Shown here: positions 3,247-58,468 of the stretch, one piece after another
Numbering within the stretch: the stretch's first letter is position 1
Layout of the letters: every line of letters begins with the position of its first letter
From: Pseudomonadota bacterium
Lineage (GTDB): Bacteria > Desulfobacterota > Desulfobacteria > Desulfobacterales > JBDRRP01
DNA: 58,468 bases
Reading direction: 5' to 3'
NCBI GenBank assembly: GCA_043825735.1
Contig: JBDRRP010000037.1
Span: 1 to 58,468, forward strand
Notes under the pieces: model-generated
What the model was told of the DNA's origin: nothing
The model's input: the letters and a program-made list of their open reading frames with translations, nothing else
Database searches by the model: none
Made by a program: the position numbers and the translations under genes

Positions 3247-3842
3247 TCGGTGCTAAATCAAAAGAATGGCCCGAGATAGTATCATGCGGGATATTAAAAA
3301 GGGAGATCCGCTATCTTGCCTATAAGAATGAATGGCCTGTTAAATTGAGGTTCCTCGACTCGTCTTTACATATAGATCTTGAGAAGTTATCAAAATCCTT
3401 AAAAAGGATCTTGTCGAAAAACATCAACCGTGAAAAAATAGTCGTTTACGGTTCATGCCACCCGCAAATGGATGATATCCTCAGCAGTGTCAACGCAGTC
3501 AGAACGCCTTGTCAAAACTGCGTTGAACTACTTCTTGGGAAAAGGGAGTTTACGGAAAAACTGTCAAAAGGGGCATTTTTCCTTTTCGAAGATTGGGCCA
3601 GGCGGTGGGAGGAAATCAGCTATGGTTACTTTAAGAACTGGGACATAATGCGAGAGATATTTCAAGGTGCACATAATTATATTTTGTGCATTGAAACACC
3701 CTGCTCTACCGATTTTAAAAGCTATGCAAAGGAGATAAGTTATAAGATTGGATTGCCGGTTGTATGGGGACGATATGATTTGAACCGTTTAGAACGGGCA
3801 TTGAAGCAAAGTGTTCTTAGCTCTATTGGGAGGATTATCTAA
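3243..3842 (+). CDS. DUF1638-like protein
   Basis: Motifs IVSCGILKREI, LDSSLH, VYGSCHP, CQNCVELLLG; ATGA overlap; this family typically neighbours corrinoid methyltransferase genes. Confidence 0.75.
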   Translation: MIGAKSKEWPEIVSCGILKREIRYLAYKNEWPVKLRFLDSSLHIDLEKLSKSLKRILSKNINREKIVVYGSCHPQMDDILSSVNAVRTPCQNCVELLLGKREFTEKLSKGAFFLFEDWARRWEEISYGYFKNWDIMREIFQGAHNYILCIETPCSTDFKSYAKEISYKIGLPVVWGRYDLNRLERALKQSVLSSIGRII

Positions 3843-5947: not shown

Positions 5948-6063
5948 CGTTGAGCGTTTAAGGAAATGGTTTTTTAGTGAAAAGGAGCTACATGCAATAA
6001 TGCATGGTTCCAGGGCCGTACTCGGACAAAACGGTTTTACGGAATCGGCTCGCGCTATTTTCG

Positions 6064-6192
6064 ACCACAGGGTATTGGAAAAGGATTGAATCCTATATCA
6101 GTGAACGTTCTGAGCCAGAGTTCGGCCATAGCATTTGCCTGGAATGTGCGAAAAAATGTTACCCCGATATAAGTATTTACTATGAGAATTGA
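6064..6192 (+). pseudogene. Detached remnant of the Cys/His-rich C-terminal module common on deltaproteobacterial signalling proteins
   Basis: GYWKRIESYISERSEPEFGHSICLECAKKCYPD matches the GYW..IE.YI...S...FSHGICP.C..KLYP pattern; the first CxxC half is missing. Confidence 0.6.
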
Positions 6193-6363
6193 ACTCAACA
6201 ATAATTATCAGAAAGCGAGGTTTTTGCGACAGAATTTGTTACAGATACTAGAAATATTGCCGAAAATGAAACTGGCAGTGGATAATTTCTGTCTATGCAA
6301 GTTTACACAACTTCGACAGTTTCTTCTTAACTTCATAAACAGAGAATATTTAATCTGCAGGAC

Positions 6364-14960: not shown

Positions 14961-15021
14961 GACCTATCTCCTGATAGTTGCCGATCGTAAAATCATATGC
15001 TCATCGGCGATGATTTCGCGG

Positions 15022-15204
15022 TTATTTTCCCCCGATCAACTGCGGCGTCTGCTCGTTGTTGTACTGCTTTCTGGCGATACGCTCCACCTGAGGCGCGAGG
15101 TAACCGAACAGGTCGTCCACCTTGAGAGAGCCGTCCACGTTGACGACGCCTTCGTTCTTGATGCCCTTGAGCAAATAATAGGTGAACAGCCCGTGCCCCT
15201 TTTC
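15022..15204 (-). pseudogene. C-terminal remnant of a second caspase-family gene
   Basis: Startless frame EKGHGLFTYYLLKGIKNEG...EQTPQLIGGK*, homologous to EKGHGVFTYYFLKAL...QQTPSL in the downstream gene. Confidence 0.75.
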
Positions 15205-16030
15205 ACCTTGTCAGTCGGTAAACGGCGGTGGCTTCGGTCCAGTCGCCCGGCGCCAGGTGGTTGAGCCGTCGCACCAGGTCGCTGATCATTCCCGTCGCGT
15301 GGGCGTCATAGACTTCGAACATTCCTTCCTTGAATCCAAGGGAGATCAGGTCCTCTTTATTGCGGGTGGCGATCAGCTTGATGCGCTCCTCAGCGAAATT
15401 TTCCACGTATCCGGGCAAAAATGCGGCGGTCAGCCGGATGGGACTGCCGTCGGGGGGAAACACATGGACCGTATCGGCTTTTGTCAGGTTGTCGGTCTGG
15501 CGGGAGTTGGGCAACAGCAGGGTCACCGAGCCGTCGGCGGCGACCGAAAAAATGTAAACGTAGCAATCCTGGTTCGGCTCGTAGATGATCCGGACCGCGT
15601 CGCCGGTCACAAGGTCCGTTTTGGACAGCAACAGCCTGACGGCAAGGCCTTCGCCCTTTTCCGGAAATACCGGCGCGATGAGGGCTTTGATCTTGACCCG
15701 GTAAAGGGTTCGGTCCGCCGGGTCCCACCCCTCGCCCAGGATCTCGGTTTTCTCGATGCGCCCCCTCACCGAGGCGAACACCAGGTCCTCGGCCAGTTGG
15801 TTGTTCGATACCAGAGAATGCGACTTGATAAAAACGCCGACAGCGGTTTCCAGGGCGTTTTTCTGGGCATCGCGCCTGGCCCGATCCTTGACTTCAGTGG
15901 AGGTTTCGATGTCTCCGAGAACCGCCTGGCCGGCGGCCTCGACCCATACCGGTTTTTCAGCGGAAAAGACTGTTGATGAAATCACGGGCAGCAGCAGAAA
16001 AAGAAGAACCAGGCCAGCCTTTTTCATCAT
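15203..16030 (-). CDS. Exported DUF4384-domain protein with an FlgT/LPP20-like N-terminus
   Basis: Signal peptide MMKKAGLVLLFLLL; ARRDAQKNALETAVGV; DUF4384-like CYVYIFSVAADGSVTLLLPN. Confidence 0.75.
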   Translation of the reverse strand: MMKKAGLVLLFLLLPVISSTVFSAEKPVWVEAAGQAVLGDIETSTEVKDRARRDAQKNALETAVGVFIKSHSLVSNNQLAEDLVFASVRGRIEKTEILGEGWDPADRTLYRVKIKALIAPVFPEKGEGLAVRLLLSKTDLVTGDAVRIIYEPNQDCYVYIFSVAADGSVTLLLPNSRQTDNLTKADTVHVFPPDGSPIRLTAAFLPGYVENFAEERIKLIATRNKEDLISLGFKEGMFEVYDAHATGMISDLVRRLNHLAPGDWTEATAVYRLTR

Positions 16031-16228
16031 ATTTTCATCGCCTTTTCGGTAGATGCGATTTGCCACCGGGTTATCTGTTCGAATATATTTGGACTGAGGC
16101 GGGAAATCAAATTGTTTGGGCATTTGCCGGCACCGGTCTTCGGTTTCACCTGTTCCGCGGGAAAAAAGGGGGGCTCTCCTCGCACAGCCAATAGGGGTGA
16201 ATTTGAGCGTTCATGGTTCACCGGGCGC

Positions 16229-17490: not shown

Positions 17491-18792
17491 TCAGAGCACC
17501 ACCTTCCAGATCACCCCGACGGCAGCGCCGATGGGGACCAGGTAGTGCACGGGAAAATGATATTTCTGAAGCAGCAGCAGGGACAGCGCGGCGGCGGCCA
17601 CGGCAAAGGCGTCGATGCCGCCGCCGGGCAGGGTCACCTTGATGCCGAACCACACCGCCAGGTTGAGGATCACGCCGACCACCGCCGCGGTAACCCCGGT
17701 GAGCGCCGCCTGGAGCCGCTGGTTGCCGGCCATGGCCTCGATATAGGGGGCGCCTGCGAAGATAAAGAAAAAGCAGGGCAAAAAAGTGACGTAGGTGGTG
17801 ATCAGCGCGCCGAAAATACCCGCCGTCAACGGGGTGAGACCTCCCGGCAGGTGCCAGGCCCCCAAAAACCCCACGTACTGGGTCACCATGATGAGCGGGC
17901 CGGGCGTGGACTCGGCCAGGCCGAGACCGATCAGCATCTGCGCCGTCGTGAGCCAGCCGTTGGTCACCGCCACGTCGGTGATGTAGCTCAGCACGGCGTA
18001 GGCGCCGCCGAAGGTGACGAAGGCCGCCTTGGTGAAAAACAGGGCGATCCGGGTCAGGGTGCCTTCCGACCCGTGCCAGACCCAAACACCGCCGACGACA
18101 AGACCCCACAGGACCGCGCAGACGAGAAAAACCCGGATGACATGGACGAAAGATGGCGCAACGCGCGCCTGCCCGAGGTCGGTTTCGGCTTTTATGCGGC
18201 ATTCCCGCGATTGCAGATCGAAGTCGCCCTTGCAAAAAACTTGAGGCCACCGGCGCTGCATGAGAAGGCCCCCCAGGGCCGCTGCAGCGACAATGGCGGG
18301 AAACGGCACTTTGAAGAAAAAGATAGCGACAAACGCCGCCACGGCAAATCCATAGAGCATGTGATGCTTGAGCGCCTTCTTGCCGATGCGCAGCACCGCT
18401 TCCACCACAACAGCCACCACCACCGGCTGGATGCCATAGAAGGCGGCGGCCACCAGCGGCACGTCGATGTGGGCCACGGCCAGATAGCTGAGCAGCATCA
18501 TGAGGAAAATCGAGGGAATCACGAAAAGCGATCCAGCAGCGATGCCGCCGATCGTGCCGTGCAGCCGCCAGCCGATATAGGTGGCGAGCTGCTGGGCCTC
18601 CGGGCCGGGCAGCAGCATGCAGAAATTGAGCGCCCGCAGGAACTGGCTCTCACCGATCCACCCCCGCCGCGTCACCACCTCCTGGTGCATGATGGCGATC
18701 TGCCCGGCCGGACCGCCGAAACTGATAAAACCCAGTTTGGTCCAGAATTTCAGCGCTTCCTTGAAAGGCACAGTTGACATTGCAGTGTTCAT
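17491..18792 (-). CDS. chrA: Chromate efflux transporter
   Basis: SFGGPAGQIA, LLPGPEAQQ, TFGGAYAVL and ESTPGP motifs in two homologous halves. Confidence 0.95.
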   Translation of the reverse strand: MNTAMSTVPFKEALKFWTKLGFISFGGPAGQIAIMHQEVVTRRGWIGESQFLRALNFCMLLPGPEAQQLATYIGWRLHGTIGGIAAGSLFVIPSIFLMMLLSYLAVAHIDVPLVAAAFYGIQPVVVAVVVEAVLRIGKKALKHHMLYGFAVAAFVAIFFFKVPFPAIVAAAALGGLLMQRRWPQVFCKGDFDLQSRECRIKAETDLGQARVAPSFVHVIRVFLVCAVLWGLVVGGVWVWHGSEGTLTRIALFFTKAAFVTFGGAYAVLSYITDVAVTNGWLTTAQMLIGLGLAESTPGPLIMVTQYVGFLGAWHLPGGLTPLTAGIFGALITTYVTFLPCFFFIFAGAPYIEAMAGNQRLQAALTGVTAAVVGVILNLAVWFGIKVTLPGGGIDAFAVAAAALSLLLLQKYHFPVHYLVPIGAAVGVIWKVVL

Positions 18793-20057
18793 TCAGAGCT
18801 CCTATTGACAGACGTCGCCGGCATATCGCGGCCGAAAACCGCAAATCCCACAGTGCCGATGACCCCGAAAACGAACGCCGCGATCAGATTCGTTTTTGGG
18901 CTGATCTGCCATAAAAAAGCGCCGCCCAATGCGGCCGCAGCGACGAAAACGTCCCGGATCAGGTAGTAAAGCCCGAACATGCCCGCCTTGCAGTGATCCG
19001 GGGCTAAATCCATGATCAATGACTTTCGGGTGGGCTCACCGAATTCCTTGAGCCCCCTCAGAATGAACGCGGCAACGAGCCACTCGAAAGAGCGGCTGAA
19101 AAGCAGCACCAGGGGAAACAAGGTGAAAAAAACAAAGGTCATGAGCACGAAGGGCTTCTTAGTGCTGCGGTCGGCCAGGTAGGCCACCGGGATGTACACC
19201 AGCACGGCCGTGGCCATTTCGATGGTGGTCAGCACCCCGAACTGCAGTGCCGAGATAGGCGATGCGATGGTCTTCATGCACCAGACCACCACAAAGGCGT
19301 AAGGAATCTGCTCGCAGAACCGGATGAGAATATCGGAGACCAGAAGCCGCTTCATGGAAGGGTTCATGAGCCGAAAGAGTTTCAGGGGGTTTTTCTCAGG
19401 CGTAAGCGTGCAGGCATCGCCCGAAGGCCGGGCCGCCGGGCCGTCATCGGCGATCATCCGCTGCTGGAACACCAGCGCCACGAAAGCCATTATAAATGCG
19501 GCTCCGAATGCGAGCCGGACACCGTCGCGCTCGCCCCACACGCTGATAAAAAGCCCGCCCAGCAGTGGGCCGAGCGCCATGGGGATGCGCCTTACCAGCG
19601 AGTGCATGGTCACGCCCATGGTGCGCTTGTCCGCGGGCAGCACCTTGTAGATCAGGCTCACGGTAGCCGGCAGAGAGATGGCCGACCAGGAAATGAACAG
19701 CACCGCGCCTGCCAGCACCGCCTGCCAGGCCGGCACCAGGAGCACCAGTGCGAATCCTGCCATGGCCACCAGGTTGAAAATCAGCAGCGACTTTTTGGTG
19801 CCCAGCCGATCGGACAGATAACCGCCCGGAAAGGAGTAGAGGGCCGACAGCAGGTTGTCCATGGCCTGCAAAAGACCAATGGCCAGCACGCTCCCCCCGA
19901 GGGCCAGGATGTAGATGGGTAAAAACCGCTCGGCCATCCGCTCGCCCATGCCCAGCAGGATCACCATGGCCAGAACACCCAGGGTGCTGCGTTGCAGACC
20001 GAGAAACCTGCTGATGCTGCCGGCAGCGGAGCGGGGGGGTGTCTTGTTATTTTCCAT
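18789..20057 (-). CDS. MFS transporter within the chr operon
   Basis: About 12 hydrophobic segments; GYLSDRLG motif A; overlaps the chrA start. Confidence 0.88.
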   Translation of the reverse strand: MENNKTPPRSAAGSISRFLGLQRSTLGVLAMVILLGMGERMAERFLPIYILALGGSVLAIGLLQAMDNLLSALYSFPGGYLSDRLGTKKSLLIFNLVAMAGFALVLLVPAWQAVLAGAVLFISWSAISLPATVSLIYKVLPADKRTMGVTMHSLVRRIPMALGPLLGGLFISVWGERDGVRLAFGAAFIMAFVALVFQQRMIADDGPAARPSGDACTLTPEKNPLKLFRLMNPSMKRLLVSDILIRFCEQIPYAFVVVWCMKTIASPISALQFGVLTTIEMATAVLVYIPVAYLADRSTKKPFVLMTFVFFTLFPLVLLFSRSFEWLVAAFILRGLKEFGEPTRKSLIMDLAPDHCKAGMFGLYYLIRDVFVAAAALGGAFLWQISPKTNLIAAFVFGVIGTVGFAVFGRDMPATSVNRSSE

Positions 20058-20069
20058 GAAGCGTTCCCT

Positions 20070-20507
20070 TTAGTCCTGAGCCTTCGCCACTTCCAGCCGG
20101 CACCAGGCATACAGTGCGTCATAGACCTCGAACTGCCTCTCGATGTTTTCCAGGTCGTCTGGAAATCGGATGCTGTAGCCCACGGCGATAGCTTCGAATC
20201 CTGCCGCCAGCGGATCGGCGTCCAGCCGGTTCGTATCGGCAGCATTGACGATCCTGGCCATCCTCAGCAGCGCGGCATCGGTCAGCTCGTAATCCTGGAT
20301 AATCACCGTGAAGGTGCACCGGTCTCCCCGATGATGCAGCACGGCCCCTGGGGTATCAAAGGGTATGGCGCCGATCTTTTCGGCCGTTTCCATCACCTTG
20401 CTTTTAGGGACGAACAAAAACTCGGCATCCGAGTCGATAAAACGGGTGATCAGCCACGGGCAAGCCACGCGGTCCACGTGCACGTGAGATCGGGTGATCC
20501 ATTTCAT
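20070..20507 (-). CDS. ChrB C-terminal-domain protein (ChrF-like)
   Basis: MKWITR..HVDRVACPWLITRFID and YDALYAWC motifs. Confidence 0.88.
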   Translation of the reverse strand: MKWITRSHVHVDRVACPWLITRFIDSDAEFLFVPKSKVMETAEKIGAIPFDTPGAVLHHRGDRCTFTVIIQDYELTDAALLRMARIVNAADTNRLDADPLAAGFEAIAVGYSIRFPDDLENIERQFEVYDALYAWCRLEVAKAQD

Positions 20508-20563
20508 GTCAATACTCCTTTATTATGGGGATGTCAGTTGAGCCTGCCGCTGCCCGAACCCGA

Positions 20564-21538
20564 TTAATTGCCCTTTTGCCGCTGGTAATAGGCATACAGA
20601 TTGTCAAACAACCTGCAGCCCTCGACCATTCGCCGGTCGTCGTCCGCCTGAGAGGCCATAAGACCGGTCAGCAGGGCCTTGAACCCGTCGGTTTCACTGC
20701 GGCCGTACTTGCCGTCTTTCAGATCGATGTCGTGAACGATTTCGGCCATAGAAACAAGCGTCCGGTCCTTGGGCAGCAACCGCTGGATCATCACCTCAAA
20801 CGTACAGCAACCCCCCTCGTGGGTGTATTCACCCTCGAACATATCGAACCGAAGCTCTCCGGATCCGGGAGTATATTGAGGATCGGGGACAAACTTGAAA
20901 GTCGCCGCGCGATCCACAAAGCGCAGAATCAGCCAGCCGCAGGCCAGGCGGTCGACAAAGAGGTTTTCACGGGTCACCCAGGTCCTGCCTTTCAGTTTTC
21001 CAATCGCCTCGGAAAGGGGGTTGCCCGTCGATGCCTGACCGGCCAACCGGACTTCAAGATTCTGGAGCAAAATCTCAGCCGTTCCCCGCTCGGGTGCTTT
21101 GAAAAAATCGATGGCTACGAGATCATTCAACCGACGTGCCAGACGGGACAATTGCGAAGGGCCCTTTATAGCCGGATCCTGTGGGTCGCCCTGATCGGAA
21201 GACCATTCGGCGAGCAGAGTATTGGCCTCCTGGATAATTTTTTGATAATCCGAGGCCCGCGCATTTTGAAACAGGGAGATCATCTGTTCGTCAGTCAGGC
21301 CTTCCACAAACCGGGCCTCGGCGATGGACCCGTCTCCCCCCCCATCGACAATCTCCCTAAGGGTCCAGGTCAAATCTTCACGGGACTGCTCGGTAAACGG
21401 CAGGACGTAAACCGATTGCTTGATCGTCACTGCTCCGATCTGTTGCAGTCGCCGCCATATTTTTACGCGCAAGGCAGTGGGCCTGGGCGGTATCTGATGC
21501 ACCAGCAGCAACCATTTTCTTTCGTTAACAGATATCAT
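20564..21538 (-). CDS. chrB: Chromate-responsive regulator ChrB
   Basis: N-domain WLLLVHQIP..RVKIWRRL plus C-domain WVTR..VDRLACGWLI.RFVD. Confidence 0.9.
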   Translation of the reverse strand: MISVNERKWLLLVHQIPPRPTALRVKIWRRLQQIGAVTIKQSVYVLPFTEQSREDLTWTLREIVDGGGDGSIAEARFVEGLTDEQMISLFQNARASDYQKIIQEANTLLAEWSSDQGDPQDPAIKGPSQLSRLARRLNDLVAIDFFKAPERGTAEILLQNLEVRLAGQASTGNPLSEAIGKLKGRTWVTRENLFVDRLACGWLILRFVDRAATFKFVPDPQYTPGSGELRFDMFEGEYTHEGGCCTFEVMIQRLLPKDRTLVSMAEIVHDIDLKDGKYGRSETDGFKALLTGLMASQADDDRRMVEGCRLFDNLYAYYQRQKGN

Positions 21539-43594: not shown

Positions 43595-46500
43595 TCAGCC
43601 TCCTTCTCCGATAATGACAAAAGGTGCCCAAAAGAAGGGATGCGCGTAGCTTGCCACAATTTCCCCTGTAGTATTGTCTTTTAGCCCCGGCCCCTCCATA
43701 ATTTTGAATATCGAGTTTTGAAGTGCTGACGCTGTTGAAAGGGATTTATTTTCCTGTTGATATCGAAAAAGCTCTGTCGTCAACAGCCTGGCCGAAGATG
43801 TTTCCACCGGCCACATGGTGACAAGCAGAGCTCGTGCACCAGCATAAAAAAATGCCCGTCCAAGTCCACTGACCGCTTCCGTTCCGTTACCGTCTCCGGC
43901 TCCAGTATCGCAGGCACTGAGCAATACCAGATCTGCATCCAGATTAAGGGTTAAAATTTCTCCCAAGGTTAATAGGCCATCTTCATCCGATTCGGTTACT
44001 TCCGGTGCTGAAAAAGCCAGGGCTGGCTGAGTCAGACCATCCAAGTCCCCGGGTAGAAGTGCGTGAGTGGCAAATGCTATAATTCTTTTCCGAGAAAGAT
44101 CCTGTGATTTCACGGCGGCTTCGGTGGCTGCTTTTCCCAGGAAAACGTCCCGCACAGGGTCGGCCTTAAGGCTGGCGGCGATCTGGCGAATTTCATCAGC
44201 GGTATCCGGCAACCTGGAGAGCTGTTCAATGCGCACCGATGATAAGGCAGCGCTGTCCAGTTTTTCTCCTGCGTCAATGATCCGGATGCCCCGGATAGCG
44301 ATCTCGCCTGAAAAGGCCCCACGCTGTGATAATGTGGAATGAGTGGCCGGTGTCTCCTGTAACTGGGCCAAGTTAAAAATGGGATCACCGAACCCGACAA
44401 ATGGCTCGCGCTCCTGATGGGGTGCGGGTAGTGCACGCAGGGTCAATAACGCGGCGGCTGAAGGCAACCGGGTAATGGCGGCCTTGCGGACCAGCCAAGG
44501 CACTTGCTGGTATTCATCAAATAAGAGGGGGCCTCTTGTGGCGGACTTGACCTTTTTTGTAGGCAGCACAGCAAGAGGAATCTGGTCCAGAGGTCCTTTG
44601 ACTACCACCAATAAACTGTGGGCATCACGCCAGGCGGGTTCCACCGGCCGCAGCAAACGGTCGTAGAGAGCGTAAGCGGTCGTTAGGTCAAAGTCGGGAA
44701 TTTCACTCAGCATCCGGACACCTGGCCGCAGGGCCCGGCGCAATCGGCCTACTTTTTGCCGGACAGCTTCTTCGCCCAGTTCGACAACATTGAAAGCCGG
44801 ATCACCCTTGGACGGGATCGCCCAAACACATGTTTTATTTTCCAAGGTCCATAGCGTGATAAACGCCTCACCGGGCAGGAGCCGTTCCTGGATCTGCGCC
44901 ATTCCCGGTGGCTTAGGGTTGATGTAGTTAGAGTACTTGGGGAAGTCTTTGTTTATGCGCGCGCTAATTGCTGCATGAGCCACAGATAGAGACTGAATAG
45001 TGCGTTCAAGGTCGCGAGTCGCGTTACTCCTATCGCCTGAAGTTGCAGCGGTGGCATTAAAAAAGGCCGCCTCAAGACTTCGGATTCTTTTTTTTGCATC
45101 CTGTTCCTGGCGGACCAGCGCGGCCAGTTCGGGATCAACGAGAGAAGCCGCGCGGGCACTGCTTTCGCCCAACGCGCTGTTCACTCGGCTGTACTGGGCA
45201 TCTGCCAGCTTCAGGATTTCATCAGCCACAAAAAAAACGTCTTCGCTTTTCTGGCCAGCCTGATACCACTCCAAGAGGCTGTTGATATAGACCTGAAGCA
45301 AGAGGCCCGCGCGCCGACGTTTTTCAAAGTTACTGTTGGGGTCCTGAATGATGGTCAAAAGGTCAGGAATCACTCTTGAAAAAAGGGACCGCGCCTTATC
45401 CGGCTGTCCTTTAGCTTTAAGAACCATGGCGTCGAAAGCCTGAAGCTCGGCCTCTTCATAGACGTTTTTGACGCCAAGGGCCTGGTTAATTTCCCTTGTC
45501 GTCCGAATCAGTTTCTCGGCTTCGAAAATACGCTGACTTTTCATCAAGGTCAGTATCAGCCCCGGGTTGCGGCACGCGTAGCGTTTAAAAAAATACGGGT
45601 TGTCCCGCATACCCTCAAGAGCGCTGTCATAGGACTGCATGGCCGCTTTAAAATCATAGTCCGTGCTTTCAACATTTGCTTGGAAAATCCTGGCCCGGAC
45701 CATGATGTCTTCGTCAACGGACAAGCCCAGCCGGCCGAGAATGTCGATCTGTGCTGTGGACAGGCTGCGGGCACTGGGTAGATCACCTTTTGCAAGCATA
45801 ATCACGCCCAGCATTTGCAGGGCATCGGCAGTGATGCTGGACATTCCGCCCGAAATATTCACGGCTTCCGTCACGGCCGTGCGGGCTTCCTTTTCAGCCT
45901 GGACCAACTGCCCCTGATGCATAAGGTTGCCTGCCAAGGCCAGCCGGGCGTAGACGGCACCCAGGGGTCTGGTCGCACGAATCCTGAAGTAGTCGTTCAG
46001 CACCATGGCGCGCGGCGAGTGAGCCTGCTGGTACTGGCCCTGGGCTTCCAGGAGTTCGGCTTCTGCCGCTAAGATGTCGTTCTGGTTACCCTCGTCAATA
46101 TAGCCCCCGAGCGCAATCCAGCTCAACCGCGCGCCTTTCGGCACTTTTTCCCATAACCGCTGAGCTCGCTGAACGTACTGCTCAGCGCGGTTGAAATCGC
46201 CCATGCGATGGATGATACGGCTTTCAAAGGCCAGGTCGGGACCCAATCTCATGGAATTCGCTCTGACGTTTTCCCTGGATCTTTTGCTAAGTTCAAGGGC
46301 AGATTCATACCGACCGGCAATCATTTCCAGTTCGGCGAGCCTGTGGTAAAGGTTTGAGTCTTGGCCGTGTTCCATTGCCCTACGGATATCGCGACGGCTA
46401 TCACTATATCGATTGAGCTCGTACCGGGCCTTACCCCGGGCCCTGTAGAACTCAAATAGAGCGTAGTGGCCTGCCTGGGCGGGCACCTGGGCGTCGGCCC

Positions 46501-46723
46501 GGCGCATGAGTTCCGCAAGATCATCACTGACACTCTGTCTGTCTTGCGATAGCAGCACTATAATATCATCCATTTTTCGGGCAGGTGGCTCCAAAGGGAT
46601 GCTCTGCATGCTGAGCACCACATCACGGGCCTCCTCGAAACTCATTTTGGACTGCTCGGTGGTTTTGCAGGAAACAATCAGCATGCACACAGCAAGGGCC
46701 AAACAGACTCTTGTCATTTTCAC
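43595..46723 (-). CDS. TPR plus CHAT (caspase-like) domain lipoprotein
   Basis: Lipobox IVSC; helical TPR-like region; GFGDP, FATHAL, LSACDTG and HPFFWAPF motifs. Confidence 0.9.
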   Translation of the reverse strand: MKMTRVCLALAVCMLIVSCKTTEQSKMSFEEARDVVLSMQSIPLEPPARKMDDIIVLLSQDRQSVSDDLAELMRRADAQVPAQAGHYALFEFYRARGKARYELNRYSDSRRDIRRAMEHGQDSNLYHRLAELEMIAGRYESALELSKRSRENVRANSMRLGPDLAFESRIIHRMGDFNRAEQYVQRAQRLWEKVPKGARLSWIALGGYIDEGNQNDILAAEAELLEAQGQYQQAHSPRAMVLNDYFRIRATRPLGAVYARLALAGNLMHQGQLVQAEKEARTAVTEAVNISGGMSSITADALQMLGVIMLAKGDLPSARSLSTAQIDILGRLGLSVDEDIMVRARIFQANVESTDYDFKAAMQSYDSALEGMRDNPYFFKRYACRNPGLILTLMKSQRIFEAEKLIRTTREINQALGVKNVYEEAELQAFDAMVLKAKGQPDKARSLFSRVIPDLLTIIQDPNSNFEKRRRAGLLLQVYINSLLEWYQAGQKSEDVFFVADEILKLADAQYSRVNSALGESSARAASLVDPELAALVRQEQDAKKRIRSLEAAFFNATAATSGDRSNATRDLERTIQSLSVAHAAISARINKDFPKYSNYINPKPPGMAQIQERLLPGEAFITLWTLENKTCVWAIPSKGDPAFNVVELGEEAVRQKVGRLRRALRPGVRMLSEIPDFDLTTAYALYDRLLRPVEPAWRDAHSLLVVVKGPLDQIPLAVLPTKKVKSATRGPLLFDEYQQVPWLVRKAAITRLPSAAALLTLRALPAPHQEREPFVGFGDPIFNLAQLQETPATHSTLSQRGAFSGEIAIRGIRIIDAGEKLDSAALSSVRIEQLSRLPDTADEIRQIAASLKADPVRDVFLGKAATEAAVKSQDLSRKRIIAFATHALLPGDLDGLTQPALAFSAPEVTESDEDGLLTLGEILTLNLDADLVLLSACDTGAGDGNGTEAVSGLGRAFFYAGARALLVTMWPVETSSARLLTTELFRYQQENKSLSTASALQNSIFKIMEGPGLKDNTTGEIVASYAHPFFWAPFVIIGEGG

Positions 46724-48740: not shown

Positions 48741-49991
48741 CTACAAAAACTCCGCAATACTCACCGTCCGGTCACCGAGCATGTTCACGTAGCTGCCCAT
48801 CTCGTTGTCGTACCACCCGTAGATGACCGCCTGGGTCATGGGAACGTGGATAATGGGGATGCCCAGGGCCTCCACCGTGGCCTTGTCGATGCCGGGAACG
48901 TTTTTCAGATCCACGGTCAGCTCGGCCGTGCGGCTGTGGGTTTCGTGCCCTTCGATGATGGTGGCCGCCCGCGGCGCACCGATAATGTCGCCGGAAACGT
49001 TTTGCTGCTCGGTAAATACCAGGTAGCCGCTGGGGTCGTCGGCCGCCGCCTGGCGAAAGACGTTGTTGACCACATCGCGGGTAATGGACCGGCCGCCCAG
49101 TTCCTCCTGGAGGTTGAGCACCAAAATAATCAGCGAACCGGTGGAGGTGGGAATGCGCACCGACTCGGCGATGAAACCGATTTCTTCCATGGCCGGAATC
49201 ACGAGCCGGAGTGCCCGCGCCGCGCCGGTGGTGGTTAGTATGATGTTGTTGATGATGCTGCGGTTTTTCCTCAGATCCGTCTTGCCCGCGCCCGGCAGCC
49301 GGTCGAGCACCTGCTGAGAGCCGGTGGCCGCATGCACCGTGGCCATGGATGCCGAAAGGATCCGCTGGGGACCGAAGGCGTTGAGCAGCGGCTTCATCAT
49401 ATGCGCCAGGCACGTGGTGGTGCACGACGCGTTGCTGATGAGGCAATGCCGCCGGGGGTCGTAGTCCGTGTCGTTGATCCCCATGACGGTCGTGACGGCG
49501 TCTTCGGGCATGGACCCGCCCTGATCCTTGATCTTGAAGGGCGCTGACGCGATCACCTTCTCGGCTCCGGCGAGCAGATGCCCCCTGAGCGCCCCCTTGG
49601 GTCCATCCCCGGGCTCTGTCGGATCGAGAAACTGTCCGGTGGTATCCACCACCACGCGCACATTGTACTCTGCCCACTGGATATCGGCCGGGCGGCGATG
49701 GCTCCGGAGAAACCGCACCGGCACCCCGTCGACGGTCATGGTGCCGGCGGCCTCGTCGACATCGGCAATGACAGGCCGGGCGGCTTGCCCGTAGAGATAG
49801 TTATGCAACTGCCCGTAAGTGGAATCGCGTTCGGTATAGTGGGCGATATCCGCCAGCGATGTGCCGACCTTGCGACCGATGTTGATCACCACTTCACGGA
49901 AGTATTTCCGTGCCACATGGTGCCAGAGCGTCAGCTTGCCGATGCGACCGAAACCATTGATGCCGAGAACCAGATCGCTGCCTGTATCCAT
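48741..49991 (-). CDS. gap: Atypical long glyceraldehyde-3-phosphate dehydrogenase family protein
   Basis: INGFGRIG, SNASCTTTCL, TVHA, TTTGAA and WYDNE motifs; 416 aa with insertions. Confidence 0.88.
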   Translation of the reverse strand: MDTGSDLVLGINGFGRIGKLTLWHHVARKYFREVVINIGRKVGTSLADIAHYTERDSTYGQLHNYLYGQAARPVIADVDEAAGTMTVDGVPVRFLRSHRRPADIQWAEYNVRVVVDTTGQFLDPTEPGDGPKGALRGHLLAGAEKVIASAPFKIKDQGGSMPEDAVTTVMGINDTDYDPRRHCLISNASCTTTCLAHMMKPLLNAFGPQRILSASMATVHAATGSQQVLDRLPGAGKTDLRKNRSIINNIILTTTGAARALRLVIPAMEEIGFIAESVRIPTSTGSLIILVLNLQEELGGRSITRDVVNNVFRQAAADDPSGYLVFTEQQNVSGDIIGAPRAATIIEGHETHSRTAELTVDLKNVPGIDKATVEALGIPIIHVPMTQAVIYGWYDNEMGSYVNMLGDRTVSIAEFL

Positions 49992-52900
49992 TTATGCCTC
50001 CTTTAGCATGGCATGCCCTTGATAGACCGAACCCTCCTGACCGTCAACACTAATGTAGGCGCCGGAATCCAGGCGTTTGCCATCGAATGAACAGGACCGC
50101 TTCTTTTCGTTGACAACAAGGTTACCGCACCCGACCACACAGGTCTTCTCCAACCGATGGGCCACGACCGCCGCATGGGAGGTCACACCGCCGCGTGCGG
50201 TGAGCAGACCGTCGGCGGCATAAATCTCACGGATATCGTCGGGAACCGTGTCACCGCGGACCAGGATCAGATGGGTATCGGGCTCCTTAACCCGCCAATC
50301 GTCGATTTCCTGAAGGGTGAACACCACACGGCCGTTCATGGCGCCGCCGCTGACAGCGATGCCGTGCCCCAGAAACTGTTCTTCATCGATCCGCTCGTGG
50401 TCATAGGTCATGACCCGTTTTCGCTCCCGCATGGCCATATCCCGGGTCTGCAGCAGGTAAAGATCTTCTACGGTCGGGCTTTCAAAAGTGAACTCCATCT
50501 CCTGAGGACTCCACCCCCGGGTGTAGATCAATTCGTTGGCCCAGGTCTTTAGCGTATCGTAGATCTTCGGGAAATGCGTCTCCAGAGTGATATCGGTATC
50601 GCGCATCTCGGTTTCCTGCTGCAGCAGCGAAATGGGCAAAGTCGTGACCAGACCGCTCACCACGTCTTCTCCCTGGTTGGCGATGGTGAAATCCCCCCAG
50701 AGCTTGAGGATGTCGCCGGACCAGCGCGGGTTATGGGTAAAAAAGACGCCGGTACCCGATTGGGAGGACAGGTTGCCAAAGACCATCTCCTGGACGGTGA
50801 CCGCCGTGCCCCAGTCGTCAGAAATGCCCATGATGCGCCGATACGTGCGTGCCTTGGGCGAATACCAGGAGTCAAACACACTTTTAATGGTCATGTACAG
50901 CTGATCGAAAGGCTCGTCGACGATGTCGATGCCGTCATCCTGGATCAATTCGCGGTAGGCCAGCGCCACGGCCTTCATCTGCTCACCGGCAAAGCCCTTT
51001 TTGAGCGGGATGCCCAGTCGCTGCTTGAAGGCGCTGATAACGGCGTCGAAATCGTTTCGCTGGAGCCCGAAGGCCATGCCGTAGCACTGGAGAAACCGTC
51101 GATAACTGTCCCAGGCAAACCAGGTGTTGCCGGTGCGCCGGGCAAGACCTTCGGTGATGGGGATGTTCAGCCCCACGTTGAGAAAGGTATCCATCATGCC
51201 CGGCTGGGAAATGGCCGATCCACTGCGCACTGAAAACAGCAGCGGGTTTTCCGGGTCTCCAAAATTTTTCCCCGTCATCTGCTCGAGCCGCTGTATCTCC
51301 AGGGACAGGTGGTCCTTGAAATTCTGCTCCGCCGGAGAATAGCTCTCTAAGATGGCCTTGCAGCGGAAGGCTTCGGTGGTGATAATGAATCCTGGAGGAA
51401 CCGGCAGATTGTACTCGCGCAGCTTCACCATGTTCTGCCCCTTGTTGCCCAGATAGATAATGCTGTTGACCCGCTCCTTGGGCGACGCAATGGAGGTCAT
51501 GGCTCGCTGGGGGTCGTAGTTGAGCAATAACTGCAGTTTGTCGGTGGGCAGCCGGTCGGACTGGTGAAACAGTGTGTTGAGGATCCGACTTAGAAAGGTG
51601 TCGAGCTGCTGGAGCCCTAAAGAGAGGGCGATGCGATCCCTGAAAAACACCTCCGACACCCGGTGCTGGAACTGCTCCGGATCATTTTTGCCTTCCGGGG
51701 GCAGAAATTTCGGCAGCAGCTGCTCCGGCGGCAACTGGCTTAAGATCCGCGTCAGATTCTGCTCATGGATGTTGTTGAAATAGTCGTTGATGATGTTCTT
51801 CACCGCCTGGGCAAACCCTTTGAAAATGTCCAGGTACTGGGTGAAGGTGAATCCACGCACTTCCAGACTGTGCGCCAGAAGATCCAGTTGGCGCTCGATC
51901 TCCACCGAGGAGATCCCGTCAAGTTTGAGCGCCCGGTCAAAGAGCATGAGACGGTTGTAGATCTGATAGAAAGTGGCTTTGGTGATCAGGCTGAGATCAA
52001 TATCGTTGATGCGCTGCTCAAATAGCACGTTGGCCACCGACTCCAACCGAAAGGTCAAACCGAGCGCATCGAACTTGGTCTCATGATACCTGCCGTACAT
52101 GGACGGGATGTCCACAGTGAAATGCCGTTTCTTGTAAATGTCTTCACGGACTTCATAGATCGTATCGGAGACGGCGATGGTTTTCAGCCGCTCGAGAAAA
52201 TCGATCAGTCCGTTGAGTTTTTCCTTGGTTCCCGGGGATGCCAGCGCCGCACGCAGTCGATCGAGGTCCGGAAATGCTTCAGCGTGAAGCTGCGCCAGAT
52301 AATTGTCCATCTCGATGAAATCGAGATTGTACTTCTGGTAGAGCATTTTATAGAACTGGATCAGCAAAACAATCCGCCGACAGTCTACCGGTGTGGCGCC
52401 GGCGGCCCCCTTCAGAATGTCGGTCAACTCTGCTTCATCGAGACTGATCACCCCTCTGGGCCACGCATATCCCAGCGAACTCACGTGAGCGACGGCAATG
52501 CGCACTCCCGCGGCATACGGCCCATTGGGATCGATGCCTTCGTAAATGCTGGGAGGAACGTAGGGTTCCACCAGTCGCTTGTCACCGGTCTGCCAGTAAG
52601 CGAGCGTGGCTTCCATAAACTTCACTGCAAGATTGCTGCTCTCCACATGGCACTGTTTTCTTAAAAAATGAATGAGCACATCGCGGCGGTGGACGATCTC
52701 GTCAAGCTCGGTGGAAATGTCACGCAGCGCCCCTTCCGCGCCGATGTCATTGAAGTAAACCGGGAACAGTCGTGCCAGTTGTTTGGCGAGATTGTACACC
52801 GGCCCTATTCCGCTGTTGAGAAAACGCGTGATATCGCGGGGAAAAAGATCGGTGTCTTTGATGAAGACCCCGCACAGGGCAAGATGGATGGTCAGATAGG

Positions 52901-54170
52901 ACAGCAGGCGGGGCGAATACTTCGGGTTGAGTTCGATGAGTTCCAGCCAGGTCCGGATGTTCTGGATATGGGCCGGATTCATCTTCACCTGCCAGTCGTT
53001 ACCGACGCCACCGATCATGGGCGCCTGAAAACCGAGATCGATCATCCGATCGATGAAAAAGTTGATCAGTTCGCTGTCATCGGTCTTGATGACCCCTTTG
53101 CCCATATTGGAGACGCAGTTGAGTGCCGTCGCCGGGAAATCCTTCACCCGGCTTTTGAGAATGCCGAAGGTCCGCTCGATCAACTGTCGGATATGCCGGT
53201 GGGTGGTCGTACCGATCAACCCGGTGAGGGTTCGGTTGATGTCACGCAGCGTTTCCTCGTGGATCGCAGACAACCCCGGGATGCTCATCATGTGAAAGAG
53301 AAAAATCACCTTCCACTGATTGCCCTGACCCATGAGGCGCCCAATGGCCATGATCCGCCCTGGAGCCCGGCGGTAATGATCGACGACGACACCGAATCCC
53401 TTCAGATCCACCATGGCTTTCAGCGAGTCGACGTCATTTTCACCAGTTGCCAGGATCGCCTTCAGACGCTCGAATTCGGTCCGGATCTTTTGGTGCGACA
53501 CCGGCAAGAGAATCTCCCTCAACGGGGCGTCATCATGGCTCTGCACCTCATTGAGAAACCACTCCAGGGGATCGTTCTCCGAAAGCCAGTAATCGTAGGT
53601 GTTCTCGTAGTAGCGCTGAAGGAGTTTCATGATTGTGGTAAGCCCCACCACGCGATAACCGTCGGGGTTATCGGCAATGAGCGCTGCCAACCGAGGAAGC
53701 TGAAAATAGCTCTTCATGAGAAGGGCGAAAAGCGGCTCCGGGAGCGACACAAACCGCTCGAAGGCGCTGTCCACCACCGGTGCGAACCGAAACAGATCGG
53801 GGCCGGCCTCCTTGAGCACCTTCTGCAGATAGAGCTGCAGGTTGTCCACGGCATCGACATGAATATCGGATGGCAGCTCCGTTGTGATGGCCGTTAGGAA
53901 CACCTCGACGAAAAGGGCCATGGCATCAGGCCCATCAGGATGCTGCCGGAGCAGGTGAAAGTAATCGAGGGCATATCCACGCGCCTCGTTGACAATAAAC
54001 CGCCAGTTCCGGTAGGGATGTGACAGCTCTTTGAGAAACGTGTTGAGCCCTTCCGTGAGGCCGTAGTATTTCGCCATCGCCTCCTGGATTGGGGCATACT
54101 TCGCATCGATGTCGACATCAACGTGGTAGCTGGCGACATTGGCCTCGAGGGCTTGAGATTTGAACGCCAC
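49992..54170 (-). CDS. Giant PPDK-like dikinase: ~900-aa unknown N-terminal region, ATP-grasp and phospho-His domain, no pyruvate-binding domain
   Basis: LGNKG, PVPPGF, SVRSGS..PGMMDT, QGEDVVSG, LQTR and GGVTSHAAVVA motifs; ends shortly after the His domain; GTG start with AGAGG RBS. Confidence 0.88.
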   Translation of the reverse strand: MAFKSQALEANVASYHVDVDIDAKYAPIQEAMAKYYGLTEGLNTFLKELSHPYRNWRFIVNEARGYALDYFHLLRQHPDGPDAMALFVEVFLTAITTELPSDIHVDAVDNLQLYLQKVLKEAGPDLFRFAPVVDSAFERFVSLPEPLFALLMKSYFQLPRLAALIADNPDGYRVVGLTTIMKLLQRYYENTYDYWLSENDPLEWFLNEVQSHDDAPLREILLPVSHQKIRTEFERLKAILATGENDVDSLKAMVDLKGFGVVVDHYRRAPGRIMAIGRLMGQGNQWKVIFLFHMMSIPGLSAIHEETLRDINRTLTGLIGTTTHRHIRQLIERTFGILKSRVKDFPATALNCVSNMGKGVIKTDDSELINFFIDRMIDLGFQAPMIGGVGNDWQVKMNPAHIQNIRTWLELIELNPKYSPRLLSYLTIHLALCGVFIKDTDLFPRDITRFLNSGIGPVYNLAKQLARLFPVYFNDIGAEGALRDISTELDEIVHRRDVLIHFLRKQCHVESSNLAVKFMEATLAYWQTGDKRLVEPYVPPSIYEGIDPNGPYAAGVRIAVAHVSSLGYAWPRGVISLDEAELTDILKGAAGATPVDCRRIVLLIQFYKMLYQKYNLDFIEMDNYLAQLHAEAFPDLDRLRAALASPGTKEKLNGLIDFLERLKTIAVSDTIYEVREDIYKKRHFTVDIPSMYGRYHETKFDALGLTFRLESVANVLFEQRINDIDLSLITKATFYQIYNRLMLFDRALKLDGISSVEIERQLDLLAHSLEVRGFTFTQYLDIFKGFAQAVKNIINDYFNNIHEQNLTRILSQLPPEQLLPKFLPPEGKNDPEQFQHRVSEVFFRDRIALSLGLQQLDTFLSRILNTLFHQSDRLPTDKLQLLLNYDPQRAMTSIASPKERVNSIIYLGNKGQNMVKLREYNLPVPPGFIITTEAFRCKAILESYSPAEQNFKDHLSLEIQRLEQMTGKNFGDPENPLLFSVRSGSAISQPGMMDTFLNVGLNIPITEGLARRTGNTWFAWDSYRRFLQCYGMAFGLQRNDFDAVISAFKQRLGIPLKKGFAGEQMKAVALAYRELIQDDGIDIVDEPFDQLYMTIKSVFDSWYSPKARTYRRIMGISDDWGTAVTVQEMVFGNLSSQSGTGVFFTHNPRWSGDILKLWGDFTIANQGEDVVSGLVTTLPISLLQQETEMRDTDITLETHFPKIYDTLKTWANELIYTRGWSPQEMEFTFESPTVEDLYLLQTRDMAMRERKRVMTYDHERIDEEQFLGHGIAVSGGAMNGRVVFTLQEIDDWRVKEPDTHLILVRGDTVPDDIREIYAADGLLTARGGVTSHAAVVAHRLEKTCVVGCGNLVVNEKKRSCSFDGKRLDSGAYISVDGQEGSVYQGHAMLKEA

Positions 54171-54343: not shown

Positions 54344-54478
54344 GATGGCCTCGTAAAAAGTCAGAATCTCGCGCAAAGCCGCAGAGATCGCAAAGATAAG
54401 GAATTGATATTAATTAATTAAATTTTACTTGGCGTACTTGGCGTCTCTGCGAGAAAATTGCTTTTTTACGGGTTCATC
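54344..54478. mobile_element. MITE of the same terminus family as 43071, with a perfect 6-bp target duplication
   Basis: AATGTT|GATGGCCTCGTAAAAAG ... TTTTTACGGGTTCATC|AATGTT, followed by another left end GATGAAACCGTAAAAAG at 54485. Confidence 0.8.
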
Positions 54479-54574
54479 AATGTTGATGAAACCGTAAAAA
54501 GTGGGCACCACCGTATCAATCGTCGTATCGGGCATCAGCAAACCAACGCACCCAACCAAGCCGCAAAGCATCAG

Positions 54575-55111
54575 ATGAACTCAGGACAGGCTATACCACC
54601 GCGCACCATTTACCGGATCCTTTGCGAAGCAGGACTCATTTTGCTCGCAGCCGTCATTGCCGGTATCCTGGCGAATCATTTTTACAGTGACGGAATTGCC
54701 GTGCCCCCGCAGCCGTCTCCGGTGGCCACCCGTGCGCCGGCAGTGCTTTCCAGCCCGAAGATGATCGATGTGGAGACGGCATCCCAATGGTTTGACAATG
54801 GCTCGGCGATCTTTATCGATGCCCGGGACAAATATGGATTCGCCGAAAACCATGTGCCCGGCGCAATCCACCTCGATGTTCTCGACGCCGACACGTGGAT
54901 GATGGACATCTACCGCCGTTTGCCGCAGGATGGCAGAATCATCACCTATTCAGAAGGCGATACGGACGAAAGCGCGCTGCGCCTGGCCGAACGCCTGTCG
55001 GAAATCGGTTTCAAAAACGTCTACTGTCTGGACAACGGCTGGCAGGGATGGCTGGACCGGGGCCTGCCGGTCAGCGATGCGCTCACGGCAGTGCCGGGAT
55101 TGGATCGATGA
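54575..55111 (+). CDS. Membrane-anchored rhodanese-like protein (active-site Cys replaced by Ser)
   Basis: N-terminal TM; FIDAR..HVPGA; IITYSEG; LDNGW. Confidence 0.75.
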   Translation: MNSGQAIPPRTIYRILCEAGLILLAAVIAGILANHFYSDGIAVPPQPSPVATRAPAVLSSPKMIDVETASQWFDNGSAIFIDARDKYGFAENHVPGAIHLDVLDADTWMMDIYRRLPQDGRIITYSEGDTDESALRLAERLSEIGFKNVYCLDNGWQGWLDRGLPVSDALTAVPGLDR

Positions 55112-57592: not shown

Positions 57593-58468
57593 TTATCCGA
57601 TGATCGGGTCCATGGACAGGGCCGGATGGCCTTTTTCCTTGAGGAAGGGCATGATCTCCTCCTCGGTGATGCCCACGGTCTCGTCGGCGATCATGTCGTA
57701 GAGACCCGGTACGCCGAGCTCTGCTCCACGCTTTTCGATGCGCTCCTTGATCTCTTCCTTCAGGCTCTTGGGCATCCAGACCATGCGCAGCAGCCCGCCG
57801 TCGCCCAGGATGAACTTACGCTGGGTGATGTTGAACTTGCTGTGGCCCACGAACCCCGGCGAGCTCGCCCCGCCGCCCATCACACCGGCCAGCGTGGTGA
57901 ACTTCATCCCGCAGGGGGTTTCACCCGTGTAATCGCGGTGAACGGTCATCACCCCGTTGCAGCTCGGCAGCATCGCCGCGATCGCCTCGCAGCAGCCGCA
58001 GGTCGTCATCGGCTCCTGTACCATTGAGTAAAAATTGTAGCTACTGATGGCACCGCGCGAGGCCTTGGCGATGAACGCGTTGACCCCGGCAAAGGTGCCC
58101 AGCTTCGGATTCAGGCACTCGCCCTTCTCGATGGGCTGGTTGGGGCCGGTGGGGTTGATCTCAAAGGAGGCCTTGCAGTCCATCCAGTTGTAGGCGCCGC
58201 AAAGACCCGTGCGCTCCGGGCTCACCGTGCACACATGCGTCGGGGCAAAGCTCTGGCACAGCGTACAGCTGTAGAAGGTCTCAACGTCTTCGTCGGTCAT
58301 CTTCTCCACACGCTCGTCACGGAACCGGTACTCGGCGCGTGCCGTCTTGGTCAGCGCATCCACCTTCTTTTTGTCGGTAATCAAGGTGACCTGCACCTTG
58401 TCCAGGATCGAACCAAAATCCTGGTGGAACTTGGCGTGCAGCACCACCCCGATGTCTTTTAACGTGAA
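57593..58468 (-). CDS. acsB: Acetyl-CoA synthase, C-terminal part (5' end outside the window)
   Basis: CTLCQSFAP, GLCGA, PMTTCGCCE A-cluster ligands and VWMPK. Confidence 0.95.
   Translation of the reverse strand, partial: FTLKDIGVVLHAKFHQDFGSILDKVQVTLITDKKKVDALTKTARAEYRFRDERVEKMTDEDVETFYSCTLCQSFAPTHVCTVSPERTGLCGAYNWMDCKASFEINPTGPNQPIEKGECLNPKLGTFAGVNAFIAKASRGAISSYNFYSMVQEPMTTCGCCEAIAAMLPSCNGVMTVHRDYTGETPCGMKFTTLAGVMGGGASSPGFVGHSKFNITQRKFILGDGGLLRMVWMPKSLKEEIKERIEKRGAELGVPGLYDMIADETVGITEEEIMPFLKEKGHPALSMDPIIG

What the first reader, a model, noticed from the sequence alone, without database searches (positions are those of the whole stretch)
48741..54170. Giant pyruvate-domain-less dikinase abutting an atypical GAPDH: candidate new gluconeogenic or acyl-phosphate module
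Seen: a 1392-aa protein with a ~900-aa unrecognised helical N-terminus, a complete PPDK-type ATP-grasp and a TSH phospho-His domain, ending without the C-terminal PEP/pyruvate TIM barrel. Its stop directly abuts the GAPDH start (TAAATG), and the pair lies beside acsBCE. Known: rifampicin phosphotransferase and glucan water dikinase reuse the same two domains with a different substrate domain, so a 'PPDK' label is unlikely to be correct. Inference: the N-terminal region binds a different acceptor. One testable idea is ATP-to-AMP-driven formation of 1,3-bisphosphoglycerate (or another acyl phosphate) channelled to the partner GAPDH to pull gluconeogenesis from Wood-Ljungdahl carbon. Alternatively it is a protein kinase or regulator of the GAPDH.
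Basis: partly seen in the sequence, partly recalled or inferred. Interest (0 to 1): 0.8.

Follow-up and report, generated by a model that had tools for sequence, protein, structure and literature searches.

The report
Barrel-less dikinase tied to GAPDH
A giant enzyme that keeps the ATP-driven phosphate-carrying half of pyruvate phosphate dikinase but has a new 890-residue domain is inherited together with a second, unusual glyceraldehyde-3-phosphate dehydrogenase in anaerobic bacteria, and it most likely controls or feeds that step of sugar synthesis in a way not yet described.

Summary
Observation confirmed: a 1392-aa protein (unknown 890-aa N-region, PPDK ATP-grasp, phospho-His, no barrel) abuts a 416-aa long GAPDH. 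Of 301 genomes of the phylum, 87 have both, 5 one, 209 neither. The acs link is incidental (14 of 87 lack acsB; 131 of 214 others have it). PGK is kept in 80 of 80, ordinary GAPDH in 78 of 80. The long GAPDH keeps its catalytic residues, has lost Asp32 (NADP-type signature) and is the only GAPDH found in two closed genomes. The giant also sits beside the ordinary GAPDH (46 of 82), and a sister clade occurs without the long GAPDH (8 of 8). In published Syntrophobacter proteomes the giant is about 60-110-fold scarcer than the long GAPDH and 70-340-fold scarcer than PGK. That argues against 1:1 channelling of 1,3-bisphosphoglycerate and for a sub-stoichiometric converter acting on GAPDH (0.42); a 3-phosphoglycerate dikinase remains the main rival (0.33). 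No fold or complex model could be made, so the acceptor is inferred. Ten paper searches found no study of it. This scan noted the same family before in other genomes.

The parts
51501..54170 (-). Giant protein residues 1-890: unannotated region; variable helical-repeat-like part (about 75-370) and a conserved core (about 390-710, 840-857) with invariant charged residues, the probable phosphoryl-acceptor site
   Evidence: No Pfam or NCBIfam match over a cut-off; no natural PDB relative; invariant H401 D439 D441 E479 R483 D490 D497 R504 K505 H508 K613 Y614 E676 K681 R682 H683 S690 in 80 aligned sequences
50420..51500 (-). PPDK-type ATP-grasp domain (residues about 891-1250)
   Evidence: PF01326; aligns to 1KBL/9PZL; K910, R982, E1226, Q1241, R1243 in 159 of 159 full-length homologs
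49992..50419 (-). C-terminal swivelling phospho-histidine domain, GGVTSH motif, T1330/H1332; the protein ends here
   Evidence: PF00391; aligned with PPDK T453/H455
48741..49991 (-). Long GAPDH (416 aa): catalytic Cys, His, Pi- and Ps-site residues kept; Asp32 replaced by an N-x-G-R loop; family-specific insertions; probably NADP-type
54458..55111 (+). Rhodanese-like gene, divergent from the giant; neighbour, not part of the conserved unit
   Evidence: PF00581; among the loci L008-L137 found only here and in L128
55177..58468 (-). acsE, acsC and the end of acsB; neighbours in some close relatives only
   Evidence: an acs gene lies in 10 of 80 loci L058-L137, many with short upstream flanks

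Best explanation
The giant is an ATP-driven phosphotransferase. Shown by sequence: an intact PPDK-type ATP-grasp and phospho-His domain. Inferred from PPDK chemistry: ATP (+Pi) gives His~P + AMP + PPi, and the His domain swivels to the conserved charged site of the N-region. Inferred: it works as a low-copy converter enzyme on GAPDH in cells that hold two GAPDHs, an ordinary NAD enzyme and an Asp32-less, probably NADPH-using gluconeogenic one. By phosphorylating a GAPDH residue it would switch one isoenzyme and keep the two from running an NADPH-to-NADH futile cycle; being reversible, it could report the ATP.Pi/AMP.PPi ratio. The helical repeat would dock the GAPDH. Which isoenzyme and which residue is modified is open.
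For: Sub-stoichiometry in S. fumaroxidans, where Sfum_2063 (giant), 2062 (long), 2061 (ordinary) and pgk are neighbours: summed iBAQ 2.3e5 vs 1.42e7, 1.32e8 and 1.59e7; total log10 iBAQ 5.58 vs 7.64, 8.60 and 8.12 over five conditions; transcripts about 5-15-fold below the long gap. PGK kept in 80 of 80, ordinary GAPDH in 78 of 80, so no metabolic step is missing. Linkage to both GAPDHs: ordinary gap directly upstream in 39 of 82 and after the long gap in 7 more; it stays with the giant in 6 of 15 genomes where the long gap is apart; head-to-head with an ordinary gap in 18 of 80 divergent loci. A sister clade has no long GAPDH in 8 of 8 genomes; in 3 of these 8 a short GAPDH follows the giant, and the two that were read lack Asp32. 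The long GAPDH persists without the giant in G103, G256 and G284. Where the ordinary copy has a degenerate active site or is gone, the giant is a remnant in G284 and frameshifted in G064. Regulatory-looking variants: hemerythrin fusions in 3 of 20 proteins scanned, and a diverged clade followed by a GAF-sigma54 activator.
Against: No direct evidence of binding or of protein phosphorylation. The N-region core is an enzyme-like cluster of Arg/Lys/His and Asp/Glu and is unchanged whichever GAPDH is next to it (33 of 33 core positions in 17 of 17 head-to-head loci), as expected for a small phosphorylated acid. Abundance comes from one species and from gel/iBAQ data that may under-count a 163-kDa protein; none of the conditions was autotrophic. 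G026 keeps an intact giant with no ordinary GAPDH, so the ordinary enzyme cannot be the only target. The G064 frameshift may be a sequencing error. I know of no dikinase-type protein kinase acting on an enzyme (own knowledge).
Confidence: 0.42

Rival explanations
1. The giant is a 3-phosphoglycerate, phosphate dikinase (3-PG + ATP + Pi = 1,3-BPG + AMP + PPi), the dikinase counterpart of PGK, supplying the NADPH-type long GAPDH when the energy charge is low. In reverse it would recover ATP from AMP + PPi.
For: Charged invariant site unchanged across partner types; 87 of 92 genomes with either gene have both; 32 of 40 supported GAPDH splits are shared with the giant's tree, 5 conflict; gap-giant-long gap-pgk-tpi order; long GAPDH intact and Asp32-less, a change linked to NADP use (PMC9145139, passages). 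From the estimates in Table 1 of PMC12525153 (PGK -19.3, PPDK -17.4, PK -27.6 kJ/mol, read as catabolic direction) the anabolic reaction would be about +9 instead of +19 kJ/mol before PPi hydrolysis (my arithmetic).
Against: PGK in 80 of 80 would undo free 1,3-BPG, so channelling would be needed, yet the giant is about 60-110-fold below the long GAPDH and 70-340-fold below PGK. The long GAPDH is kept without the giant in 3 genomes, and heads the pgk-tpi run on its own in L159 and L161.
Confidence: 0.33
2. The giant phosphorylates another small acceptor at low flux, for example a GAPDH side product such as 4-phosphoerythronate (then reduced back by the long GAPDH), a damaged GAPDH active-site cysteine, or it makes a signal metabolite.
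For: Low abundance with retained PGK and dispensability also fit repair or signalling; the long GAPDH has changed S-loop residues (positions 181 and 195); dikinase-type modules are reused for many acceptors (NCBIfam partial matches to Rph, PigC, RedH).
Against: No third conserved gene pointing to another pathway in 80 divergent loci; the long GAPDH is the only GAPDH found in two closed genomes, so it must handle glyceraldehyde 3-phosphate (inference).
Confidence: 0.18
3. It is a split or permuted PPDK whose pyruvate barrel is a separate subunit or is hidden in the N-region.
For: Databases label it pyruvate phosphate dikinase; residues 906-1391 are closest to PPDK.
Against: All three PEP-utilizers_C matches in this genome lie in full-length proteins of 610, 780 and 911 aa; none is stand-alone in 5 of 5 other genomes; a profile of the N-region does not match the genome's own barrel proteins or any PDB barrel.
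Confidence: 0.02

Closest known systems
Pyruvate, phosphate dikinase (EC 2.7.9.1; TIGR01828; C. symbiosum 1KBL/1DIK)
   Same: ATP-grasp and phospho-His domains in the same order; K22, R92, R135, E323, Q335, R337, T453, H455 have counterparts (the roles of these residues are recalled)
   Different: No PEP/pyruvate barrel; 400 bits against a cut-off of 843; 890 extra N-terminal residues; shorter linker; D321 is Glu
Swivel-His dikinases with other acceptor domains: rifampicin phosphotransferase, PigC/RedH, glucan water dikinase, phenylphosphate synthase, Campylobacter L-glutamine kinase
   Same: Same two catalytic modules joined to a different acceptor domain (partial NCBIfam matches to Rph, PigC, RedH far below cut-off; the rest recalled)
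   Different: Order acceptor-ATP-grasp-His differs from Rph (ATP-grasp-acceptor-His) and GWD (acceptor-His-ATP-grasp) (recalled); the N-region matches none of them
Bacillus GapA/GapB pair (NAD glycolytic, NADP gluconeogenic)
   Same: Two GAPDHs, one with Asp32 and one without (PMC9145139 passages)
   Different: The second enzyme here is a separate 405-444 aa clade with insertions, scores below GapB-type models, and is inherited with a dikinase
PTS enzyme I and chloroplast GAPDH/CP12 control
   Same: His-phosphate relay onto a protein through a helical docking domain (EI); control of an NADP-GAPDH by a partner protein (CP12) (recalled)
   Different: ATP-grasp instead of PEP barrel; HPr not found in 4 of 5 genomes tested that carry the pair

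Membership tests
PPDK (EC 2.7.9.1) | ATP-grasp domain with nucleotide-site residues | tested here: met
   K910, R982, E1226, Q1241, R1243 in 159 of 159
PPDK (EC 2.7.9.1) | Phospho-His swivel domain (TSH) | tested here: met
   H1332 invariant in the 58-sequence alignment A5
PPDK (EC 2.7.9.1) | C-terminal PEP/pyruvate barrel (PF02896), fused or as a subunit | tested here: not met
PPDK (EC 2.7.9.1) | Score over the TIGR01828 cut-off | tested here: not met
   400.1 vs 843.45 bits
PPDK (EC 2.7.9.1) | Pyruvate/PEP interconversion | not testable with these tools
   Needs an assay
Rph / PigC / PRK06241-type dikinases | Family acceptor domain and score over cut-off | tested here: not met
   Best 38.6 bits against cut-offs of 866-1700, matches confined to shared modules; N-region no match
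Any known fold for residues 1-890 | Structural match | not testable with these tools
Phosphorylating type I GAPDH | GxxGRIG, catalytic Cys and His, Thr-Gly Pi site, Thr179/Arg231, WYDNE | tested here: met
   C190, H220, T223, T255, R279, W393-E397 invariant and G256 nearly so in 89 sequences
Phosphorylating type I GAPDH | Score over the TIGR01534 cut-off | tested here: not met
   324.3 vs 367.2 bits
NADP-type (GapB-like) GAPDH | Loss of Asp32 and a changed 187-189 loop | tested here: inconclusive
   Asp32 absent, N37/G39/R40 invariant, but the loops carry insertions, so the signature is not residue-for-residue; cofactor use needs an assay
PTS enzyme I-like relay to HPr | HPr present in genomes with the protein | tested here: not met
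   HPr found in 1 of 5 genomes

The most novel reading that the evidence does not exclude
The giant is the first dikinase-type protein kinase acting on a core metabolic enzyme: an AMP/PPi-coupled, histidine-relay switch that sets the direction of the GAPDH step between an NAD and an NADPH isoenzyme in sulfate reducers, syntrophs, acetogens and anaerobic Bacteroidales, built on a domain with no known relative. The 3-phosphoglycerate dikinase rival would also be a reaction for which my search found no study.
Probability: 0.4. Interest if true: 0.87.

Novelty: new variant of a known kind. Interest (0 to 1): 0.72.

Why it matters
The GAPDH/PGK segment is treated as universal and freely reversible. 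Here 87 of 301 sampled genomes of one phylum, plus members of several other anaerobic phyla, carry an extra, expressed two-gene unit at this step that databases mislabel as PPDK. Either outcome is new biochemistry: a PPi-coupled alternative to PGK, or a covalent switch on GAPDH tied to AMP and PPi, the products of sulfate and acyl-CoA activation. It is testable in cultured strains (Syntrophobacter fumaroxidans Sfum_2061-2063; Acetobacterium species), and metabolic models that count it as a second PPDK are wrong.

Tried and rejected
Replacement of PGK: rejected (80 of 80 have a PGK match). Wood-Ljungdahl dependence: rejected (73 of 87 pair genomes vs 131 of 214 others; kin not independent). Enzyme I surrogate for HPr: rejected. 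Separate barrel subunit: not found. Translational coupling as a conserved trait: rejected. Glycogen-driven glycolysis as the reason for the pair: no glgA over cut-off in 5 of 5 small genomes, but PFK in 5 of 5, so direction is not settled by this. ESM Atlas: only own-family clusters, scores under 0.9, and no named hit for the core. Public RNA runs: one run with a 0.07 share, mixed relatives, uninformative. Promoter/terminator scan: no excess over shuffles. A search meant for Bacteroidales genomes fell on another order of this phylum (60 of 124 with the giant), so whether head-to-head Bacteroidales genomes hold a long GAPDH elsewhere is untested. Papers: searches gave 0; one gave 1 unrelated; others gave 2, 14, 16 and 31 papers, none on this family by title or abstract start; multi-term phrase searches can miss spellings such as 'pyruvate, phosphate dikinase'. 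PMC5109826 (text passages and supplement), PMC11451228 (supplement rows 1-32 of 52 'dikinase' hits, none of the right length) and PMC4046663 (passages) added nothing.
Full report
OBSERVATION. The giant ORF runs from a GTG at 54170 to TAA at 49992 on the minus strand and gives 1392 aa; the best 120 relatives are mostly 1390-1416 aa. Pfam finds PPDK_N at 948-1194 and the mobile His domain at 1301-1380, and no PEP-utilizers_C. Residues 906-1391 align with C. symbiosum PPDK 18-514 and the protein stops there. The stop abuts the ATG of a 416-aa GAPDH. acsB, acsC and acsE lie upstream, separated from the giant by an opposite-strand rhodanese gene. The closest named relatives are titled Desulfobacterales.

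THE GIANT. In 159 full-length homologs gathered from the loci, the counterparts of PPDK K22, R92, E323, Q335 and R337 are invariant, R135 is kept in 158 and T453 in 156 (these rows were picked by the KRH and TSH-type motifs, so those two motifs are not counted as results there; H1332 is invariant in an alignment of 58 not picked that way). The chemistry is therefore most likely PPDK-like: ATP + Pi to His~P + AMP + PPi (inference; residue roles recalled). The N-region has no family match, no natural PDB relative and no paralog in the genome. Residues 100-300 are variable and weakly resemble designed helical repeats (best E 2e-4); residues 400-510 are as conserved as the ATP-grasp, with invariant Arg, Lys, His, Asp and Glu. 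A profile search found 839 clusters at 50% identity.

NOT A PPDK. This genome has a full 911-aa PPDK and two enzyme I-like proteins of 610 and 780 aa, which account for all three barrel matches. Five other genomes with the pair have no stand-alone barrel.

THE LONG GAPDH. In 89 aligned sequences the catalytic Cys and His, the Thr of the Pi site, Thr179, Arg231 and WYDNE are invariant. Asp32 is replaced by an invariant N-x-G-R loop and the S-loop has an insertion, whereas the neighbouring ordinary copies keep NDL and mostly L/F-P-H. Changes at 32 and 187-188 shift GAPDH towards NADP (PMC9145139, passages read), so NADP use is likely but untested. In two closed, 100% complete genomes (G026, G064) it is the only Gp_dh_C match, and in four relatives the ordinary copy has lost the Thr-Gly Pi site, one also the catalytic Cys and His. 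It is thus very probably a working GAPDH.

DISTRIBUTION. Of 301 genomes drawn across the phylum, 93 match the N-region; I set aside 4 weak matches that belong to a diverged 1500-aa clade. The long GAPDH (E under 1e-70) is in 90. Both: 87; giant only: 2; long GAPDH only: 3; neither: 209. Of the 87, 53 are consecutive on one strand, 18 convergent, 16 apart or on other contigs. One giant-only case, G077, holds broken pieces of both. For 83 loci with both genes, 32 of 40 supported GAPDH splits recur in the giant's tree and 5 conflict; this shows joint inheritance, not binding. Source names place relatives in Bacteroidales, Lentimicrobium, Bacillota, Acetobacterium, Marinimicrobia and Myxococcota. 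In the phylum of G301 (record titled Nitrospirae) 18 of 121 match: 10 of 10 standard giants have a long GAPDH, 8 of 8 members of a 1450-1490-aa sister clade do not.

WHAT IT DOES NOT TRACK. acsB-type genes occur in 73 of 87 pair genomes and 131 of 214 others; an acs gene lies in only 10 of 80 close loci (lower bound). PGK matches in 80 of 80 pair genomes tested (80 of the 87), an ordinary-type GAPDH in 78 of 80 genomes with the long GAPDH. HPr was found in 1 of 5.

CONTEXT. The recurring order is ordinary gap, giant, long gap, pgk, tpi. Of 82 genomes with both searches, the ordinary gap is directly upstream of the giant in 39 and follows the long gap in 7; where the long gap is apart it remains with the giant in 6 of 15, while the long gap heads the pgk-tpi run in L159 and L161. 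Among 80 divergent metagenome loci, 39 hold a long gap, 28 have none with 1.5 kb or more of downstream DNA, 12 are too short and 1 is odd; 18 have an ordinary gap head-to-head, and those in the tree fall in one clade nested among long-gap giants, with all 33 core positions kept in 17 of 17. The sister clade keeps 30-32 of 33 (4 loci); in 3 of its 8 genomes a short GAPDH follows, Asp32-less in the two read. The diverged 1500-aa clade keeps 16-18 of 33, has no long GAPDH in 4 of 4 genomes and is followed by a GAF-sigma54 activator (3 of 3 scanned; fourth similar by eye).

EXPRESSION. Supplement tables only were read for three S. fumaroxidans studies. Sfum_2063 (1424 aa), 2062 (444 aa) and 2061 (336 aa) were identified as giant, long and ordinary GAPDH by length, gene order and motifs seen by eye in the printed first 400 residues, not by a tool alignment. 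PMC8691401: summed iBAQ 2.3e5, 1.42e7, 1.32e8, PGK 1.59e7, true PPDK 1.45e7. PMC5947623: total log10 iBAQ 5.58, 7.64, 8.60, PGK 8.12, PPDK 7.72, with the same ranking in five conditions. PMC10787695: transcripts 23-64, 253-399, 310-691 in 12 samples. So the giant is made, but at about 1/60 to 1/110 of the long GAPDH. Caveats: one species, similar methods, a large protein, no autotrophic condition; some supplement files were cut when stored.

MECHANISM. A free 3-PG dikinase beside abundant PGK would mostly cycle; a channelled one needs near-equal amounts of the two partners, which these data contradict. A low-copy converter explains the abundance, the kept PGK, the linkage to both GAPDH types, the survival of the long GAPDH without the giant (G103, G256, and G284 with a 94-residue remnant) and the sensor-fused variants. 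Its purpose would be to keep an NAD and an NADPH isoenzyme from cycling. Against it stand the enzyme-like, partner-independent core, G026 (giant intact, no ordinary GAPDH) and the lack of any direct evidence. I give it 0.42, the 3-PG dikinase 0.33, another or repair acceptor 0.18, split PPDK 0.02.

KNOWN AND NEW. It works like the swivel-His dikinases but fails membership of PPDK and of the Rph/PigC families. Ten full-text searches of the open library showed no study of the family; subscription papers and bioRxiv supplements were not searchable. Earlier notes of this scan describe the same pair in other genomes; they are unchecked AI notes and were not used as evidence. Verdict: real, widespread, uncharacterised; new variant of a known kind, interest 0.72.

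Noticed in passing
L048:11702-12697, L138, L139, L154:4596-5591: Full-length ordinary-type GAPDH genes with a degenerate active site (Thr-Gly Pi site lost; in L138 also the catalytic Cys and His) kept in front of the giant; possible pseudo-enzyme subunit.
   Followed up: partly
L038-L041: Diverged 1494-1543 aa relatives with an altered core and GRGAH in place of TSH, each followed by a GAF-sigma54 activator, no long GAPDH in the genome; may be a separate signalling system.
   Followed up: partly
P0156, P0157, P0187: Giants with an N-terminal hemerythrin domain, suggesting oxygen or redox input.
   Followed up: no
L182, L185, L197, L201, L202, L207, L221, L231: Ordinary-length GAPDHs upstream of Bacteroidales-type giants have Ser for the Pi-site Gly.
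   Followed up: no
L205:4358-5173: An ORF that looks like a PPDK regulatory protein (by eye) near one giant; found in no other locus and not in this genome by tblastn.
   Followed up: partly
window 57593-58468 and G000 contig C68: The acsB C-terminal part has a second copy elsewhere in the genome, 97.9% identical.
   Followed up: no
G097:C1 505497-507924 and 1777503-1779930: Long gap and pgk are duplicated in this closed genome.
   Followed up: no
window 43595-46723 and 13443-16123: A TPR-CHAT lipoprotein-like gene, and an ankyrin-caspase gene next to a DUF4384 gene.
   Followed up: no
window 1553-9201: Low-GC stretch (0.41-0.43) with a corrinoid protein, URO-D-type methyltransferase, DUF1638 and two hybrid histidine kinases.
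   Followed up: no
window 17491-21538: Chromate transporter, MFS and chrB genes.
   Followed up: no
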